This document shows positions 35,617 to 64,000 of a stretch of 64,000 bases of DNA, piece by piece (position 1 is the stretch's first letter; the number at the start of each line of letters is the position of its first letter). The translations under genes and the position numbers were made by a program. Below the pieces are notes generated by a model. The model was not told the origin of the DNA and ran no database searches. It saw nothing but the letters and a program-made list of their open reading frames with translations. Origin of the DNA: the human T2T-CHM13v2.0 reference genome, Homo sapiens; the NCBI RefSeq assembly GCF_009914755.1, contig NC_060926.1, one strand, 5' to 3'.

Positions 35617-38600
35617 AGTGAGTACATTTTCTTCCTCCTCCTCCTACTGTCCTCCCCATCCTCCCACTCTTCCTCTTTCTCTATTCTATCTTTAATTTAT
35701 GAGACCAGAGGAGGAAGGCGCTATGGTGTTGTAAAATTGAATTCTGAGTTAGGACAGGATTTGATTACTAACTAACCATGTCAGCTTGAGTATATTACTT
35801 CACCTCCTAGATTTAATTTTTTTTTGTTCAAAAAATGAAAGGATTAGATTTACAAAATCACTTCTACCTCTATGACCCTGAAAATAAGATTTTTAAAATA
35901 TTATTTTATATTTAACAAGGAGATGGGAAGTCTAAGCATTCCTTTTGGTCTTGGCTTCTTATTCTGCAGGGTGACCATGGTCCTTGGGCCCTAACATCTG
36001 GACGAAGCCTTGTAAAACAGAAATACTGAGGTGTTTTAATCCTCAGAAACATTTAGATTGGGACACAAATCTTATTTTTTACTCTTAAATTTTTCACATT
36101 TTGGGGGACATGGTCTATATTTTTCTCAGATTTCTGATATGTTGTCTTTTAAAAATGTGTAAAAGTTACAGTTCCTTTTCTATAGTTTATTTTAAAATGT
36201 GGGTCAATAGTCCCACTGCTTAGAATAAGAGGCACACAGGATTTCAATAGAAATTGCATGCCTTTTTAGATGTGCGAATGTTTCATTAAGCGTATGAATA
36301 TTTGAAGAGATGTATGACACTTTAAAAACTGTTTCCTCTACTGTGTTGGTGGCCAGGTATTAAGACTGTTAATAATAACAATTTAGCTCTCCAAATATCC
36401 TGCATCACAGGTGTTAAAGAGGACTGGAAACACCTTAGTTCTTGTATTCTTGAGGATGATTTGCCATATTGTGTCTAGTATCACGGCAAAACTCCAAGTA
36501 GCATTTTAAATAGTATTTATTTGGGTTGGAATTATTTCTATGCATTGACTCATCTTCCTGGGTTTCATTAGCTGTACGCATTGTACTTTCTTCCTTACCA
36601 CTATTTATCTCGAATTCTTGAGATTAAAGTACAGATGAAATCTAAACTTTATCTGGTAAAGTTATTAGTTCTTACAAGTAGCAAGCAAACGGTAAACTAA
36701 ATAGGATGACCTAATTGTACCAGATTTAAAAAAAAAAACAAAAAACCCTGATTCTCCTGATTCTCTCTACAAAATGCTAACATTTAAATATGTCATTTGT
36801 AAATTGTTAACCAGAAGGAACATGGGAATGACTGTAGGTTGAGTTTGAAGTGTGAAGTTTGAAGGCTTAGTTTGCTTGTTTTCAAAGTGACAGAAGGGAG
36901 CAAAAGGTTATATAAACTCCGGTGGGTACATACAGTTGCTGTGGGATATTGACCTGCTGCTAACTTACCTGCCAGGGTTTTTCCAGGAACAGTCAGTGTT
37001 AGATCACGTTTACTTCTGCCACTTGCCACCAGCCACACTGCCTTCACCGAGTCCAAGACCCTATCACCACTGGTTGGGGCTACTTGTAGCTGTACACCTG
37101 ATCTCGAAGAAATATAACTTCCCTGTTTAAAGCCCTTCCTAGTGCCCTTAAAATAAGACCCAAAGACTTCCCAAATGTGCCAGGGCCCGGCATTATTTAC
37201 GTAACCCCCGGCTGCTGTTTGCTTGGCTTGCTAAACTTTTCTACAAAGTTTCTGGCCTTACTTCTGTTCCTTCACCACCCCAAGCACACGCCCTCCTGCC
37301 TGGGACCCTCTTCACCTTTGTCCTGCTGTGCCAGCTCCTTCTTATCGCCTAGGTGTCAGCTCAATCATCACCTCCTTTGCAAATCTTCCTTGACCCCTAG
37401 ACCTCCCTTTCACAAAGTACCTTGAGTTTACACTTTGATGAGTGTCTTATGTCTACTGTAATACTATGTCCCAATGAAGATGTACTGGCAATCATAATAG
37501 GTAGTATTGGGTTAAAAGCATTAGTTTGCTGTAGGTACGTTAGGAGTACTCCCCATGTGATTGATCAGTGAATTTAAAAATGGCTAAAGTGGGTAACCTT
37601 AAATGATGGTGCAAATATACCTTAAACATTTTATATTTTCATTGAAAACACAAGTGTACTTGACACCTCTTGATGTAGAGCAGAGGCTTTTTTTCTTCGA
37701 ATATGGGGTCACCAGTAGAAGGTCTCTGGTGCATTTCCTGCATAAACTATGCTCTAGTGCAACATCTACAATAATTACTTTCCTTATTTTTGAAGTGGAC
37801 CATATCTCGACATTTATTAATCAATCTGCATGTGTAAAACCTTTAGATTTTTATGAATTCCTCCTCAAGCTTTATAGTCAACTATATGAGTGGATTGCCC
37901 TCTGTGGATCTGATAGCAATTTTTTAAATGATTCACGTTTCAACTTGTTAAAAACATTTAATTTAGTTAAAAACCAAACAAAAAAGAGCTTTGTTTCTTT
38001 TCACATTCATTTCTCAGTTTAGATCATCTTTAATTAAATATAAATGTAAGAAAGTTGGAAAATGCAAAGAAACGACTCGTTGTAAGCACATAACTCACGT
38101 GGGGGGAACAGACATGGGTGGGCACACTAGCAAACACCTGCCAGCTGCATGTGGACCCAGGTGGGCACCGGACTGTTTTAAACACAGGAGAGGGCCCATT
38201 GTCTAACTGGTGAGTTGGTTGAGTGGAAGCTGGTTGAGAACTTTTACTGCAAACCATTTACAGTAGACCACAATTTTATAGTCCTGTTTGGCACTTTTTC
38301 ATATCACTGGGAGCCTGAAGAAATAGAAGTGGGTTGGATCTCTTTCAGCCTCGGAAAAGCCTGCCATTCCCCCATCTAAAAACCCTTTCCCCATTCTCTT
38401 ACTCTGTCTCATCATGTATGTAACATGTATCCATGTATCATCATTAAGTGATCTCATTTTATATTGTTTACTTGAATATTTCCTGTAACCCCCCTGTCTG
38501 ATTCCACTAGAATGTGAGCTCTATGATGGCCAAGCCTCTGGCTGCACTGTGCCCCGTGTGTCCCCAGCATCCTGGTGGGGCTCAATACACAGAGAGCTCA

Positions 38601-38802
38601 TAAGTAGCATTTGAATACATGAATCAAAGTATGGAATGGCCCAGTTTACTGCAGCCTTTTTGCAGGTGCAAAAGATGATCTTTTAGAAAGCAGAAACAGG
38701 GGGTCTGGTGCATGAGATCTTTTTCTCAATGTGACTGTGCTGTGCAGACCTTCACGTGGTGTCTTGTGAAAGACTTTGACCACTGTGTGGACTTTCCTTC
38801 AG

Positions 38803-38917
38803 TGTATCTTTCAGAGTGCAAGACTGGGAATGGAAAGAACTACAGAGGGACGATGTCCAAAACAAAAAATGGCATCACCTGTCAAAAATGGAGTTCCACT
38901 TCTCCCCGCAGACCTAG
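38803..38917 (+). pseudogene. PLG exon 4 relic (kringle 1 N-half: [34 protein letters not shown])
   Basis: ttcag|TG acceptor, weak donor AG|gtcaga; lies after the stop codon. Confidence 0.9.
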
Positions 38918-38954
38918 GTCAGACTTTTCCTTTCATCTTTGTGTTCATCTACTG

Positions 38955-39255
38955 TAAAGTGTCCGTCTGTGTCTGTGAGGGATTGGTTCCAGGACCCCTG
39001 TGGCTACCAAAATCCATGCTTCTCAAGTCCCTTATGTAAAATGGTGCAGTATTTGCATATAACCTACATACCTTCTCTTGTGCAATCCCTAATATAATGT
39101 AAATGCTATGTAATCGTTGTTATACTGTATTGTTTTTATTTGTATTATGTTTTATTGTCATATTGTTATTTTCTCTCATCTTTTTCAAGTCTTTTCCATC
39201 CACAGTTGGTTGAATTTGTGGATGTGGAACCCATGGATACAGAGGGCCAACTGTA
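38955..39255. mobile_element. MER2 (Tigger-related) DNA transposon relic
   Basis: ggattggttccaggacccc...gatacagagggccaactgta. Confidence 0.78.
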
Positions 39256-39374
39256 TTTAGGATAATTTCATCACTTTTAATTCAAACCAGAATATGTGAA
39301 TAAGCAGACAGAAAGAATCTTTTTGATGTCGATGTTCAACTATTTTTGGCACCATAGTAGAACATGGTTGCTTT

Positions 39375-57065
<17,691 letters not shown>

Positions 57066-57984
57066 CTGCAACATGTTGTTCCAAGAATTAATTTTCAAAA
57101 TCATACATTACAGATGAAGATTCTAAATAAGAAAAATCTAAATATAAATATCTTACTATGTGATATTTTATAGGTCTGCTTTCTTTGCCATTCATCTATT
57201 CAACATACCTCAATCAACAGATTATATGTTGTAGGTGACACAAATAAAACAGTATCTCTGTTGTAAAGCATGTAATCTAACTGAATACAAGCCCTATGAG
57301 TCCCAGTTCTGAAATTTGTCAGAATTGTGTTTATAGACAGTTTTATTACACATCTTCTTCCCATCTATTAATATTCCAAGATTTTATGTCATTTCACGTA
57401 TAAGGAAAGCATTAACATTTACTGGTCACGTATCATGTTCCCTCATAAGAATCTTCTATCAGGCGGGGTAGGTATCATTATTCAAACTTTACAGACGATG
57501 AAACAGGCTCACAGTTGACAGGTAATTTTTTCAGAAATCACAAAGTCAAATTGGCTTCTGGAGTCTGCTGCTCTATCATGATGCCTCCGTGTCACCACTA
57601 TTAACTTTGCCTGAAGGAACCATGACTTGCAGTTTCTACCCCATGTGGTCAGTGACCATGAATACAAATGACCCTTACTCCAGGTGATTCTGAAGTTTCA
57701 GGAAGATGACAGATTCCCCCTAAATTTTGAACAGTAATATTAATTACAGGTAATAAAATATACCAAAACATCACTACAAAAATTTAGCATTACTTCATCA
57801 AGAGGAATAAACTGAAACTGTCAGTTTCTTGGAAGGGTGAGAGGATAGTTTATCCTGCTTTCTAATACCCACCACCTATTTGTGACTATAAACTTCCCAC
57901 CACTTATTTATGGTTCAAGCCTAGGGCAAGAGCTAGCATTTTATTTTAAAAAAGATTTGTTTAATAATTTTTCCATTTGGACAG

Positions 57985-58420
57985 TGTGATGGTTAATACT
58001 GGGTGTCAACTTGATTGGATTAAAGGATGCAAAGTATTAATCCTGAGTGTTGTCTGTGAGGGTGTTGCCAAAGGAGATTAACATTTGAGTCAGTGGGCTG
58101 GGGAAGGCAGACCCACCCTTAACCTGGTAGGTGCCATCTAATCAGCTGCCAGCGAATATAAAGCAGGCAGAAAAACCTGAAAAGGCGAGACTGGCCTAGC
58201 CTCCCAACCTACATCTTTCTCCTGTGCTGGATGCTTCCTGCCCTTGAACATCAGACTCCTAGTTCTTCAGTTTTGGAACTTGGACTGGCTCTCGTTGCTC
58301 CTCAGTCTGCAGATGGCCTAGTGATCGTGTAAGGTAATACTTAATAAGCATCCATCCATCCATCTCATCCATCCATCCAACCATCCAATTAGCTCTGTCC
58401 CTCTAGAGAACCCTAATACA
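57985..58420 (+). mobile_element. MLT2A-type (HERV-L) solo LTR
   Basis: tgtgatggttaatact...ctctagagaaccctaataca; near-TSD gacag/aacag; internal (CCAT)n. Confidence 0.88.
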
Positions 58421-58550
58421 AACAGGTAGTGGAATATTGAAAGAAATTTTATTGGAGCAGCCCAAAAAAGCATATGTACCTTAGAGTAATAGTAATTAAA
58501 TAAGACAGTGAAATTAAAGAAGAAGAACATATTTAGACAGAGTAACAGAC

Positions 58551-58746
58551 CAAGTTTAGTTTCGGGAGAATTAAGCAGCTGCTCTAAAGACTGTGTGTAT
58601 GTGCTGGCGGAAGACACAGACTCCGTAATCAGTTGTCTCCATGCCTTCTCCCTCTTCCCGGGTTACAGTGTGCATGTCTAGAAGCGGGAGGTCTGTGTTT
58701 CTCCTTTCTCGAAGGTTCTTCAAAGATTGCTGAGAGGAAACTGGGC
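58551..58746 (-). pseudogene. Frameshifted GCC2-derived exon (GPVSSQQSLKNLRERRNTDLPLLDMHTVTREEGEGMETTD / TESVSSASTYTQSLEQLLNSPETKL)
   Basis: Intact AG/GT but 196 nt for a phase 1-1 exon; extra base at 58627-58628. Confidence 0.85.
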
Positions 58747-58921
58747 CTATTAGATTTTTTTTAAAGGTTAAGTGTGAGATTGTTCAAAATCTATTGATTC
58801 GGCCTTACAGAGATACACAATAAAATGAAAATATCAAATGATAAGAGTAGAGGAATTAAGTAACTATAAGTGAAAGGTGTATGAAGAATTGCTAAAACAT
58901 TTCCTAAAATTTAGTCATCAA

Positions 58922-59229
58922 GGCCAGGCGTGGTGGCTCAAATCTGTAATCCTAGCAGTTTGGGAGGCTAAGGTGGGTGGATCACGAGGTCAGCAAGTTC
59001 AAGACCAGCCTGGCCAAGATGGTGAAACCCTATCTCTACTAAAAATACAAAAATTAGCCAGGCACGGTGGCAGGTGCCTGTAATCCCAGCTGCTGGGGAG
59101 GCTGAGGCAGAGAATTGCTGGAAGCCAGGAGGCGGAGGTTGCAGTGAGCCAAGATCATGCCACTGCACTCCAGCCTGGCGACAGAGCGAGACTCCAGCTC
59201 AAAAAAACAAACAAACAAACAAAAAAAAA
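58922..59229 (+). mobile_element. Alu with TSD ttagtcatcaa
   Basis: Alu consensus. Confidence 0.92.
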
Positions 59230-59533
59230 CTTAGTCATCAAACTTTTAACTACGTTAGTCATTTTAATAGCAGCTATAAATTAATTGCTACTAGCTAAGA
59301 TAAACTGTTAGATAACACAGCTCATAATATAGTACTACTTATTTTTTATTAATTTAGAGTAGAGGGCCAAACTACTGCTAAATACTGGCCAAAATTAAAA
59401 GACTAGATTCTAGCAATTTTTCAGGATTAGGTATTTCAGATTGCGGCATACTTCTTGAAACACACTTGCCGAAATCTGCTTGGTAGACATCCTCAATCAC
59501 TGCCCTTATACCTTTACCTCTGCAGCTTCTTAA

Positions 59534-59935
<402 letters not shown>

Positions 59936-60640
59936 CTAAACTGTAAAGTTTATCGGGCCCTTTGACATGTATTGGTTTATTGACTCCCAAAAATCTGAAG
60001 TTCAGAGAAATTTAATGACTTTGCCCAAGGTCTCATAACTGAGTTAGAAACCAGAATTGTAATCTAGATTTTTAAACTTCAGATTTCATTTATTTTGCAT
60101 TTCATTAAATTGCCTTAGTCCTGACTGCCCTTTCTAAAGCATTTTCCTGGGTTTCTGGTAAGCTGACTGCTTATTCCACTGCTGATTGCTAGATTACAAT
60201 CTCTTGTGCGACCTTTGCCCTGGCTGATTACTTCCTTTGTTGATTCTTTGGCATATGTTAAATTCTTCTGAAGTTGCTTTTTTACCCTAATAAGTGACCG
60301 ATAGCTGCTAATGCTCCAGTGACAATATTTCCCATGGGAAACCAAAACACCATCAACTTGCTACTAAAATACTGCATCATCATGGCTGACATTTTTCCAT
60401 TTCTTCCTGGAAGCAGAATGGAAGATACTGGGTACGGCTGAACTAAAACTCCAACTAATTGTAAATATGAAAGCAAAGAAGCTATATTGGTTATGCAATT
60501 CTACACATTCAGTGCTGCTTGAGTGTTTCTAAGTTCCTTGCTCTAGCTAATGTTTCTATTTAAAAAGTAGACAAATTTGATGACTAACAACGGAGAACAC
60601 GAAACAAATCTGGTGAATACCAGAATTAAGACATGTGTCA

Positions 60641-60726
60641 GCCAGGCGCAGTGGCTCATGCCTGTAATCCCAGCACTTTGGGAGGCCGAGGCGGGTGGAT
60701 CACGAGGTCAGGAGACCGAGACTATC
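60641..60726 (+). mobile_element. Alu 5' fragment cut off at the fusion breakpoint
   Basis: First ~85 nt of an AluY/Sc-like element only. Confidence 0.88.
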
Positions 60727-60761
60727 TGAGGGAGAATCTTCAGGTTTTTTCTTCTCTTTTG
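60724..60761 (-). pseudogene. Truncated RANBP2 exon ([13 protein letters not shown]) fused to an Alu
   Basis: gttacag|CA AAA GAG AAG AAA AAA CCT GAA GAT TCT CCC TCA GAT, then Alu sequence. Confidence 0.85.
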
Positions 60762-61849
60762 CTGTAACACCAGTCAAAAAAATTGACAAAGATAAGGTAT
60801 TAAGTATTGACGTTAATACTCTACCTGAAAATAAAAACCATGGAACCTATCTATAGGTTAAAACAGCATACTGATAAAAAACACATATACTTTGATGCAG
60901 AGATGTACGATAATCATGAATTAGAATTAGCATCCTGATTTAGTTTTCTACCAAAAACCCTAAGTGAACACAGAATCTATTTAAAACGAAAGAAAACAAA
61001 AAAATCTTGTGTTTACTTAATAGTCATTGAAAAGAATTACTACAAATTTCTAGAATTTAAAAAGGTTAAAAATTTTAAAGTGTTGCCTAACTATACTTAG
61101 CATACAATAGTTTACCAAAATATCCATGCATTTGCAGCAATTGAAAAAAATCTTAAAACATAAGCAAGTATTAGTATACATATGAAACTAATCCAAAGCC
61201 AACTGTGATTAGTTCCTGTAAGGAAAGTTAACAATTGCCAAGAATGGAAGGTGACTAGAGTTGCATCTAGTTTGCCTGTGTTCAAGCATGATACTAGATA
61301 AAATTAAATAAAAACTGTTACTCTATGGGTAGCTAACACTATAAAATCTAAGACCATTCATATGGCTGAAAACAACCCATCCCCAGCCACCATCAATGCA
61401 AAGGGCAAAAAATTAGAAACAGAAAAAACTTCTATATGCAACCTGTTCTGATCTATTAATGTAAAGAACAACTTCTGGCTAAAGGAGTTTAATAAAGTAA
61501 GCCAGTTATGAAGCATGCCATGTATACCAACTGGTGACAGGGAAACATTCTGAGAGCTATGGTGTCCAATATGGTAGCCTAGCCACATTCTATTAAAACC
61601 TCACAAGGTGGCTAGTCCAAATCAAGACATGCTAACAGTAAGTGTAAACACACACACTGGATTTTGAAGACTTGGTGAAAAACAATAATGTAAAATATCA
61701 TTAATTTTTATATTAATTAGAAGTTAAAATGATATTTTGGACATAATGAGTTAAATCAAATCTATCGATAAAGTTACTTTCATCTGTTTCCCTTTTTAAC
61801 TGTTTCTTTTTATTCTTTTTAATATGGCTACTAGAAAATTTATTTATTT

Positions 61850-62006
61850 ATGTATTTATTTGAGATGCGGTCTTGCTTTGTCACCCAGAGCTGGAGTGCA
61901 GTGATGTGATCATAGTTCACTGAAGCCTGGAACTTGTGGGCTCAAGTGATCCCTCTGCCTCAGCCTCCCAAGTAACTGGGATTATAGGCACAAGCCATTG
62001 CACCAA
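61850..62006 (-). mobile_element. Alu monomer (FRAM/right arm) within a MER3-like hAT relic (about 61555-62065)
   Basis: Alu right-arm motifs; tgtccaatatggtagcc...ctattggatgacactgctct flanks. Confidence 0.7.
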
Positions 62007-63141
62007 ATGACAATTTTAAATTACATACACAGGTTATATTTTATTTCTATTGGATGACACTGCTCTGCAGAACCAGTGCCCTTCCTTTTACAATGTTAAA
62101 TTTGTCCCTCTCCTTCATTATAAACGAAAACCTAGTATCATTTCCTAGCTAGGAGAAATAACAGTACACCGTAAGATACAGATTCTTGTTCCACTTCTGC
62201 TATTACTCAGTAAAGACCTCTTGGGTAAATCAGATAGCCTCTCTTGGCCTCAGTTTACTCATGTCTAAAGTCTTCATTTCTAAGGTCCCTTGGGACAATG
62301 ACATTATCAGATTCAAAACAGAATAAGGCTCTATGTTCTACAGTAGTGTATAGGCACATTCGTTCTTAGGTCAGGGATTCCTAACCTAGAGCTCACAGAA
62401 ACTGTACGCAAGTATACATCCACTTTTAAGTTAACACTTTTCACATTTCTCAAAGACCGTATCTTTAAAATAAAAGATTAAGAGCTACCTTAGCTGGTAA
62501 TAAAACTGGTATACTTAAAAAAAAATCAGAGATTGTTATTTTATCATTGTACTTGTTTGGCATGGCTAAGATGTGTTACTGGTCACTAAGGGTGAGGTTT
62601 CACTTCCCTAACCTGTTCTTGAAGGCCTTCAACAGATCCCACTTCTTGTTCCACTCTAGTAGCCACACTTCTAAAAATGATCTGTGCAACATATATAATA
62701 TGCAAGCTGTAGAATGCTGGCTGTTAAAAATGGGGTCCATTTTCAAATACAACATTTTTCTAAACCATGCACAAAAGAACAGCCCTACAGGGACACTCTT
62801 CCATACTGTATACATGCCGTTGCCACTACATGTGAATACTGGCAGACGTTAGTGGCTAAAGATAAACATTAGATAAAACATAGGTCTTCACTGAGCAGAC
62901 CTGAAATAGCAGAGCAATGAAGTACATTACAAATCAGCATCCCAGTACATTTTAAAAAACAAACCAACAAGGGTGTCATGCCACCAGTCAAAAGGTACTT
63001 TGCTTAAACTGGCATTCTTTAACATTCATGTTGTAGTGGTAAGTACTTCATTTCATACAGCCACAGTTATTAATACTTTCCTAAGGGCTACCAGCTGCTA
63101 AAAACTGCTGTTATCTCATACTGAGAATGCTAGTTCTATAC

Positions 63142-63219
63142 CTTTGCTCTCAGGCTGTGAGGAAGGGGTGCTAGTCCAAAAGGCCATGGGATTAGATTTA
63201 AAAAGGCTAAAATTAAATC
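63142..63219 (-). CDS. RGPD2: 78-nt in-frame RANBP2-derived cassette exon (GFNFSLFKSNPMAFWTSTPSSQPESK)
   Basis: ttttctag|GA acceptor, AAAG|gtatag donor, phase 1-1, no stop; peptide recalled from RANBP2 alternative isoforms. Confidence 0.7.
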
Positions 63220-63429
63220 CTAGAAAATAAAGAATATTTCATTTTTTAACATTTTAGGAAACAAAATGAATATGCTTTTAAAACATAAAAAGCCAGAATC
63301 CCTCAATTTATACCACCAATCTGACTGTCTTACATATTCATTTATCCCTGTAGTTTCATTCTTTGCTCATTTAATACATGAGCAAGACTGACATACAACA
63401 CATAAAATGAGAACATCTCAATATCATGG

Positions 63430-63743
63430 TTTTTTTTGTTTTTTTGTTTTTTTTTTTTTTTTTGGAGACAAAGTCTCACTCAGTCAGGCTGGAGTGCAGT
63501 GGCATGATTTCAGCTCACTGCTACCTCCATCTCCTGTGCTCAAGCGATCCACCTGCCTCAACCTCCTGAGTAGCTGCTAATTATAGGCACGCACCACCAC
63601 GCCCGGCTCATTTTTGTATTTTCAGTAGAAACAGGGTTTCACCACATTGGCCAGGCTGGTCTCGAACTCCTGAGCTCAAGTGATCTGCCCACCTCAACCT
63701 CCCAAAGTGCTGGCATTCTAGGAGTGAGCCACCGTGCCCAGCC
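63430..63743 (-). mobile_element. Alu with TSD tcaatatcatg
   Basis: Alu consensus, flanking repeat. Confidence 0.9.
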
Positions 63744-64000
63744 TCAATATCATGTTTTCTGAGTGACAAAAGAAACAGAACAAATGAAAATGAACACTTT
63801 AAAAAAAGACTCACGTTAATGCGCATGATTCAAGCATGAGTCCGTACACTGTACCAAGTTCTTTTGCTCTGCCCTAGCATGATAGAAGTATCTTCCAGTT
63901 ACTGAAATGTCTTTAACTAAGTTCTCTTGCTCTTTGAAACCTCACCGTGAACTTATTAAGGGAGAAAAAAAATTGCTCAAATATTTTGGGGGTGTTCACA

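What the first reader, a model, noticed from the sequence alone, without database searches (positions are those of the whole stretch)
60641..60764. RANBP2-GCC2 fusion breakpoint readable at base level: a RANBP2 exon cut and welded to an Alu
Seen: on - strand an intact acceptor opens [13 protein letters not shown], then the sequence switches at about 60724 (shared GAT) into an Alu that is itself truncated there. The frame continues SLGLLTS and stops at 60700-60702. Lower coordinates carry GCC2 exons, higher coordinates carry RANBP2 sequence. Known: RGPD genes are RANBP2-GCC2 chimeras and this peptide follows ...TPEK in RANBP2 (recalled). Inference: this is the founding microhomology junction of the family, and use of the surviving acceptor would give a GRIP-less RGPD isoform with an Alu-encoded tail.
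Basis: partly seen in the sequence, partly recalled or inferred. Interest (0 to 1): 0.8.

Follow-up and report, generated by a model that had tools for sequence, protein, structure and literature searches.

The report
RANBP2–GCC2 fusion junction of RGPD2
This is the exact spot where a piece of the nuclear-pore gene RANBP2 was joined to a piece of the Golgi gene GCC2 to create the ape-specific RGPD gene family; the reading is correct, but the fusion itself has long been known.

Summary
On the − strand an intact RANBP2 acceptor (AG 60763-60762) opens an exon at 60761. It encodes (A)[12 protein letters not shown]. At GAT 60726-60724 the sequence switches into the first ~86 nt of an Alu, and the frame ends SLGLLTS-TGA (60702-60700).

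A search of the window's own genome splits the region exactly there:
- 60724 upward matches the RANBP2 locus.
- 60726 downward matches a GCC2 intron, where the same Alu is full length.
- The only overlap is GAT, with no inserted bases.

All 7 of 7 RGPD copies in this genome are identical across the junction. Substitution divergence from the parents is equal on both sides (2.22% and 2.43%).

The cut falls after RanBP2 D2629, within about 3 residues of where the crystallised SUMO-E3 fragments begin.

The two parental breakpoints lie ~278 kb apart on the same strand, joined head to tail. This is the signature of a tandem duplication or a backward template switch, but it is not proof.

The predicted GRIP-less isoform is in frame. 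Its exon (59886-60761) is already in the RefSeq models.

Verdict: real, correctly read, and a base-level refinement of a known fusion. Whether the junction is already in print could not be checked, because Ciccarelli 2005 is not held.

The parts
60727..64000 (-). RANBP2 intron-20-derived sequence. The exon-20 donor lies just outside the window, at window-equivalent 64106.
   Evidence: window 64000..60724 matches C2:109229101-109232345; 72 substitutions in 3236 aligned bases; no long − strand ORF in this stretch; donor position.
60762..60785 (-). Intact RANBP2 exon-21 acceptor: pyrimidine tract plus AG at 60763-60762.
   Evidence: identical to the RANBP2 acceptor region; 60761-60781 is identical in all 7 RGPD copies, and one copy (110.952 Mb) has a C at 60782. 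The upper end of RefSeq exon 59886-60761 sits here (hub table).
60724..60761 (-). 38-nt remnant of the RANBP2 exon that encodes residues 2617-2673. Only codons up to D2629 survive.
   Evidence: the parental exon is L027 2308-2477 (170 nt). It is 100% identical to PDB 7r5j residues 2618-2673.
60724..60726 (.). GAT (− strand) shared by both parents. This is the junction microhomology.
   Evidence: query overlap 325-327; three-way alignment.
60641..60726 (+). First ~86 nt of an Alu, lying antisense to the gene. It is cut at its 3' side by the junction.
   Evidence: Metazoa_SRP sub-threshold match from 60641 (+); full dimer at the homologous place in GCC2; the GCC2 Alu continues past the break.
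60700..60702 (-). TGA stop in the Alu, ending the 7-residue tail SLGLLTS.
   Evidence: Conserved in 7 of 7 copies.
59886..60761 (-). Annotated alternative exon that uses the surviving acceptor. It is probably a terminal exon.
   Evidence: Hub table; no GT after 59886 (GC instead); 59886 lies inside a second Alu (59652-59935, −), and AATAAA at 59981-59976 is about 90 nt upstream of the annotated end.
42145..60723 (-). GCC2-derived block: the intron carrying the Alu, the Rab_bind exon 56926-57065 and the GRIP exon 54153-54348.
   Evidence: four collinear blocks; 445 substitutions in 18323 aligned bases; Pfam.

Best explanation
Window 60724-60726 is the single RANBP2|GCC2 junction that created the RGPD chimera.

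What was joined. A break inside the RANBP2 exon that follows exon 20, right after codon D2629, was joined to a break about 86 nt into an antisense Alu in a GCC2 intron. The joint is non-homologous: 3 bp of shared sequence and no filler. It was made once, before the family multiplied.

Consequences.
- The cut RANBP2 exon kept its acceptor but lost its donor. The main transcript therefore skips it and splices exon 20 to the GCC2 Rab-binding and GRIP exons.
- When the acceptor is used, the remnant becomes a terminal exon. The protein then ends with 12 RANBP2 residues plus 7 Alu-encoded residues and has no GRIP domain.

What is inferred rather than shown. The parental breakpoints lie ~278 kb apart on the same strand, and the distal one (RANBP2) is joined to the proximal one (GCC2). 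This points to a head-to-tail tandem duplication or a backward replication template switch.
For: Shown:
- Exact split of homology at GAT.
- Kilobase-scale collinearity of each flank with one parent only.
- The Alu is whole in GCC2 and truncated in RGPD2.
- 7 of 7 RGPD copies are identical from 60761 to 60700.
- Substitution divergence is 2.22% ± 0.26 on the RANBP2 side and 2.43% ± 0.11 on the GCC2 side.
- RANBP2 residue numbering, and the crystallised E3 fragments 3uin_D and 1z5s_D, which start at query residues 12-14.
- Frame and phase.
- Rab_bind and GRIP domains downstream.
- Exon 59886-60761 is present in RefSeq models (hub table).

From papers, passages only:
- RGPD is a RANBP2+GCC2 fusion formed less than 15 mya. 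It is absent from macaque, marmoset and owl monkey. RGPD2 is the one copy syntenic among African apes.
- The gibbon has one copy.
Against: - No ape genome could be searched, so 'before the family multiplied' rests on human copies and on the papers.
- Three bases of microhomology arise by chance at about 5% of junctions, so a microhomology-dependent mechanism is not shown.
- No RGPD copy lies between GCC2 and RANBP2 today. The copies sit at 86.996, 87.790, 106.880, 108.337, 110.303, 110.952 and 112.811 Mb.
- The longest GCC2 3' flank I traced, at the 112.8-Mb copy, ends about 37 kb past the junction. There is no further match of at least 93% identity and 300 bp to the parental stretches held. 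The tandem-duplication geometry therefore has no independent support.
- Gene conversion among copies, reported as extensive between RGPD1 and RGPD2, could make the junctions look more uniform than their history.
Confidence: 0.92

Rival explanations
1. The present junction is a secondary deletion junction. A larger duplication first placed a RANBP2 copy upstream of a GCC2 copy. A later deletion, running from the RANBP2 exon to the GCC2 Alu, then fused them.
For: - The 2005 paper's title speaks of 'complex genomic rearrangements' (reference list seen; the paper itself is not held).
- RGPD2 carries at least one other deletion relative to RANBP2: 3.24 kb, C2:109223485-109226726.
- No RGPD copy lies between the parents today.
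Against: - It needs two events where one suffices.
- A deletion would leave the same head-to-tail junction, so nothing here separates the two readings.
- The equal divergence of both flanks fits either.
Confidence: 0.2
2. Alu-Alu non-allelic homologous recombination made the fusion.
For: One side of the junction is an Alu.
Against: - The RANBP2 side is coding exon with no Alu at the break. Past the junction the parental sequence continues into the codons for DDVLIVYELTPT....
- The parents share only 3 bp at the joint.
Confidence: 0.01
3. An Alu retrotransposed into a RANBP2-derived exon. On this reading the spot is not a gene-gene breakpoint.
For: An Alu abuts exon sequence.
Against: - The Alu keeps its 5' end and lacks its 3' half and A-tail, which is the opposite of a retrotransposition product.
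- Beyond the Alu's 5' end the sequence stays collinear with the GCC2 locus for 18.5 kb.
- The same Alu sits at the homologous GCC2 position.
Confidence: 0.01
4. Assembly artefact or a private rearrangement of this one copy.
For: None found.
Against: Seven separate loci in a telomere-to-telomere assembly carry the same junction.
Confidence: 0.005

Closest known systems
[quoted passage not shown] Ciccarelli et al. 2005 (not readable here); Mao et al. 2023 preprint (passages).
   Same: It is this family. The window holds RGPD2. The 5' part comes from RANBP2 and the 3' part from GCC2 with its GRIP domain. There are seven human copies.
   Different: Nothing differs in kind. What is added is the base-level joint: the exon codon, the Alu position, the 3-bp overlap and the ~278-kb head-to-tail geometry. 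I found this in none of the papers I could open or search.
Fusion genes made at tandem-duplication junctions (5' part of the distal gene joined to 3' part of the proximal gene).
   Same: Same orientation and order: the distal RANBP2 5' part is joined to the proximal GCC2 3' part on one strand. Intact parents remain.
   Different: No copy sits between the parents today. The tandem state is inferred, not seen.
Segmental-duplication and CNV junctions with short microhomology (end joining, or replicative template switching of the FoSTeS/MMBIR type; named from general knowledge).
   Same: Blunt joint, 3-bp overlap, no filler, one end in an Alu.
   Different: A single junction with 3 bp cannot tell these mechanisms apart, and cannot exclude chance overlap.
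Alu exonisation giving Alu-encoded protein tails.
   Same: An antisense Alu fragment supplies 7 codons and the stop of an annotated alternative exon.
   Different: The splice site is not Alu-derived. It is the inherited RANBP2 acceptor, and the Alu came with the rearrangement rather than by insertion.

Membership tests
RGPD chimera junction | The 5' flank derives from RANBP2 | tested here: met
   window 64000..60724 matches C2:109229101-109232345; the exon-20 end ...FKTPEK is conserved.
RGPD chimera junction | The 3' flank derives from GCC2 and encodes the GRIP domain | tested here: met
   (collinear to C2:108953975-108979230). GRIP PF01465 at E 3.7e-17 and Rab_bind PF16704 at E 1.1e-24.
RGPD chimera junction | The same junction is present in all paralogs | tested here: met
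   7 of 7 copies in this genome have no difference from 60761 to 60700.
RGPD chimera junction | The junction is shared by ape orthologs and absent in monkeys | not testable with these tools
   No primate genomes are held. Passages report the family in apes only, but do not describe the junction.
Non-homologous or microhomology-mediated junction | No extended homology between the parents at the break; a few shared bases; no long insertion | tested here: met
   only GAT is shared, with 0 inserted bases. Chance of 3 bp or more is 0.051, so the overlap itself is weak evidence.
Alu-Alu NAHR junction | Alu elements at both parental breakpoints, recombined in register | tested here: not met
   the RANBP2 side is coding exon.
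Alu retrotransposition | 3' end with A-tail retained; flanks continuous with one locus | tested here: not met
   the 5' ~86 nt are kept and the 3' part is missing. The flanks belong to two loci.
Tandem-duplication fusion gene | Head-to-tail joint of a distal to a proximal point on one strand | tested here: met
   C2:109232345 is joined to C2:108953975. Both parental matches are on the same strand relative to the window.
Tandem-duplication fusion gene | The chimera lies between the two intact parents, with the intervening genes duplicated alongside | tested here: inconclusive
   - No copy lies between 108.95 and 109.23 Mb.
- The GCC2 3' flank is carried by the copies at 110.33, 110.92 and 112.78 Mb.
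- At 112.77 Mb it ends about 37 kb past the junction.
- Own-genome searches with more distal stretches did not even list the query's own place, so they say nothing.
GRIP-less RGPD isoform with Alu-encoded tail | In-frame use of acceptor 60761 after exon 20 | tested here: met
   (phase 1 on both sides; the tail ends at TGA 60702-60700). The exon is in the RefSeq models (hub table).
GRIP-less RGPD isoform with Alu-encoded tail | Transcript and protein evidence | not testable with these tools
   No RNA data are held. The hub table does not say whether the model is curated or predicted.

The most novel reading that the evidence does not exclude
The RGPD family was founded by one simple ~278-kb head-to-tail duplication, joined through a 3-bp overlap between a RANBP2 coding exon and a GCC2 intronic Alu, rather than by a chain of complex rearrangements. 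The inherited constitutive RANBP2 acceptor, with the Alu-borne stop, has been kept unchanged in all seven paralogs because the GRIP-less, non-Golgi RGPD protein it produces is functional.
Probability: 0.2. Interest if true: 0.45.

Novelty: already known. Interest (0 to 1): 0.3.

Why it matters
RGPD is one of the core duplicons around which ape chromosome 2 was repeatedly restructured. Its copies flank the NPHP1 deletion and inversion region.

Knowing the exact joint gives three things:
- **A marker.** It is a 1-bp-resolution diagnostic for any RGPD copy in any ape assembly or read set, against RANBP2 and GCC2.
- **A test.** It allows a clean check of whether all ape copies descend from one event.
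- **A definition.** It states precisely what RGPD lost. The cut falls within about 3 residues of the start of the crystallised SUMO-E3 fragment, so nothing of that module is present even in the remnant exon.

It does not change what is known about the family.

Tried and rejected
- **Key paper not held.** Reading Ciccarelli 2005 failed by DOI and by PMC id. Desgraupes 2023 is also not held. I therefore cannot say whether the base-level junction is already printed there.
- **Full-text searches.** Five searches aimed at a description of the junction found none: 'rgpd, ranbp2, gcc2, breakpoint'; the 2005 title with ranbp2 and gcc2; '... exon 20'; 'ranbp2, gcc2, rgp, alu'; 'rgpd, chimeric gene, ranbp2, microhomology'. 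A sixth search for RGPD isoforms gave nothing useful. PMC4292720 had only expression tables.
- **Testing the tandem-duplication idea.**
  - Own-genome searches with stretches 46 kb and 146 kb distal to the GCC2 break returned only interspersed repeats. They did not list the query's own place, so they are uninformative.
  - A stretch near the RANBP2 5' side hit two places, at 86.94 and 87.97 Mb. I did not follow these up.
  - A 20-kb fetch at the 112.8-Mb copy showed no further paralogy.
- **Alu subfamily** was not determined. No Alu library is on hand, and consensus sequences from memory are not to be used.
- **Exon 58213-58317** was considered as a GCC2 coding exon. It has stops in all three frames.

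Full report
**What is in the sequence**

Read on the − strand, a pyrimidine tract and AG (60763-60762) precede an exon that starts at 60761. That base is the upper end of the RefSeq exon 59886-60761 listed in the hub's table. With one base carried over from the preceding exon, the frame reads (A)[12 protein letters not shown]. It then reads SLGLLTS and stops at TGA 60702-60700.

**Where the two halves come from**

A DNA search of the window's own genome with 60400-61100 gave seven full-length matches at 99-100% identity. These are on contig 2 at 86.996, 87.790 (the window itself), 106.880, 108.337, 110.303, 110.952 and 112.811 Mb.

It also gave two half matches:
- C2:109231968-109232345 covers query 325-701 (97%, E 3.1e-179).
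- C2:108953975-108954300 covers query 3-327 (95%, E 5.1e-144).

The halves overlap only at query 325-327, which is window 60724-60726.

In the three-way alignment the window follows the first locus without a mismatch over the 77 nt shown, up to GAT. From GAT onward it follows the second locus. The two parents share nothing else at the joint, and no bases are inserted.

Over longer distances:
- Window 64000..60724 is collinear with C2:109229101-109232345.
- Window 60726..42145 is collinear with C2:108953975-108979230, in four blocks.

**Identifying the parents**

*First locus: RANBP2.*
- The cut exon is 170 nt in the parent (L027 2308-2477).
- Its translation is identical to residues 2618-2673 of the 3224-residue 'E3 SUMO-protein ligase RanBP2' in PDB 7r5j.
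- Upstream, a 1732-codon open frame ends ...FKTPEK + G|gtaagt.

*Second locus: GCC2.*
- The name comes from the hub's annotation of the family.
- The downstream exons at 56926-57065 and 54153-54348 encode Pfam Rab_bind (E 1.1e-24) and GRIP (E 3.7e-17).

**The Alu**

Rfam's Metazoa_SRP model gives the sub-threshold matches typical of Alu elements.
- In the window the match is at 60641-60758 (+).
- At the homologous GCC2 site there are two adjacent matches (L009 1472-1586 and 1306-1452, − strand), i.e. a complete dimer.

In GCC2 the element continues past the break. In RGPD2 only its first ~86 nt survive, lying antisense to the gene.

This pattern excludes two alternatives:
- **Retrotransposition into the exon.** The 5' end is kept, the 3' half and A-tail are missing, and the flank beyond the 5' end is GCC2 intron.
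- **Alu-Alu recombination.** The RANBP2 side is coding sequence.

I could not assign the Alu subfamily.

**Is it the family's junction?**

- All 7 of 7 copies in this genome are identical from 60761 to 60700. Across the 341 nt compared, they show seven single-base differences in all.
- Substitution divergence from the parents is 72/3236 = 2.22% on the RANBP2 side and 445/18323 = 2.43% on the GCC2 side. These values are indistinguishable, as expected if both halves left their parents together.
- Passages of Mao et al. date the fusion to less than 15 mya. They report no RGPD in macaque, marmoset or owl monkey, and call RGPD2 the only copy syntenic among African apes. Passages in PMC12882164 give one copy in gibbon.
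- I could not look at any ape sequence, so 'founding' remains a well-supported inference.

**How it was made**

- The joint is non-homologous, with a 3-bp overlap. Such an overlap of 3 bp or more is expected by chance at 5.1% of random joints. It is therefore compatible with end joining or replicative template switching but does not prove a microhomology-driven mechanism.
- The parental points are 278,370 bp apart on the same strand, and the distal one (RANBP2) is joined to the proximal one (GCC2). That is the head-to-tail signature of a tandem duplication or a backward template switch. Such an event would leave both parents intact and create exactly this kind of chimera.
- Independent support is lacking. 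No copy lies between the parents now.
- The GCC2 3' flank continues beyond the RGPD2 boundary in the copies at 110.33, 110.92 and 112.78 Mb. In the longest one it ends about 37 kb past the junction.
- A two-step history, with a larger duplication followed by a deletion, would leave the same joint.

**What it does to the gene**

- The break falls after D2629. The crystallised RanBP2 E3 fragments (3uin_D, 1z5s_D) begin at query residues 12-14 of the exon translation, within about 3 residues of the cut. No part of that module survives.
- The names IR1 and SUMO-interacting motif for this stretch are recalled, not tested.
- The remnant has an acceptor identical to the functional RANBP2 one, but no donor. 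The main transcript therefore passes over it to the GCC2 exon at 57065. That exon needs the same phase: N + 371 nt = 124 open codons.
- The RGPD2 exon-20 donor is conserved at window-equivalent 64106.
- This exon is already in RefSeq's models (hub table).
- Its annotated 3' end (59886) lies inside a second Alu, without a GT, and about 90 nt past the nearest AATAAA. The true poly(A) site is open.

**Novelty**

The fusion is textbook for this field, and the alternative exon is annotated. The base-level joint appears in none of the papers I could open or search. The primary paper (Ciccarelli 2005) and a 2023 review are not held, and their supplements could bear on this.

I rate the finding as correct, neat and useful as a marker, but already known in kind.

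Noticed in passing
window 37943-42145: Homology to the GCC2 locus stops at 42145. The last RGPD2 coding exon (39375-39409, encoding ...[15 protein letters not shown]) therefore lies outside the GCC2-derived block, in sequence that overlaps PLGLB2's last exon. The C-terminus of RGPD2 is not GCC2-derived.
   Followed up: partly
window-equivalent ~66375 (outside the window; L034): RGPD2 lacks 3.24 kb present in RANBP2 (C2:109223485-109226726). In the parent, that stretch covers the 3' end of the preceding intron and the first ~2.9 kb of the long exon-20 open frame, which starts at 109223844. This is a second family-shaping deletion. A 779-codon frame remains open up to the donor.
   Followed up: partly
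window 47284-47289: 6.2 kb of the GCC2 locus (C2:108967884-108974063) has no counterpart in RGPD2. Whether this is a deletion in RGPD2 or an insertion in GCC2 was not resolved.
   Followed up: no
window 61129-63219 (−): Another annotated alternative exon inside RANBP2-intron-20-derived sequence. It has a good acceptor and no donor. In phase 1 it would add a 33-residue tail and stop, giving a second possible GRIP-less isoform.
   Followed up: partly
window 58213-58317 and 56140-56245 (−): These annotated cassette exons have AG/GT sites but stops in all three frames. They are non-coding or 'poison' exons within the GCC2-derived intron sequence.
   Followed up: partly
C2:87972983-87976413 and C2:86944070-86947505 (outside the window): A 3.4-kb stretch from near the RANBP2 5' side (C2:109175812-109179248) has 96% copies at these two places. 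They lie ~180 kb from the RGPD2 junction and ~50 kb from the 86.996-Mb junction. The 87.97-Mb copy lies inside RGPD2's long annotated span. Collinearity was not worked out.
   Followed up: no
RANBP2 locus, L027 2345-2353: In the parent the break lies at the first unit of a GAT GAT GAT run, which encodes DDD. Only the first GAT survives in RGPD.
   Followed up: no
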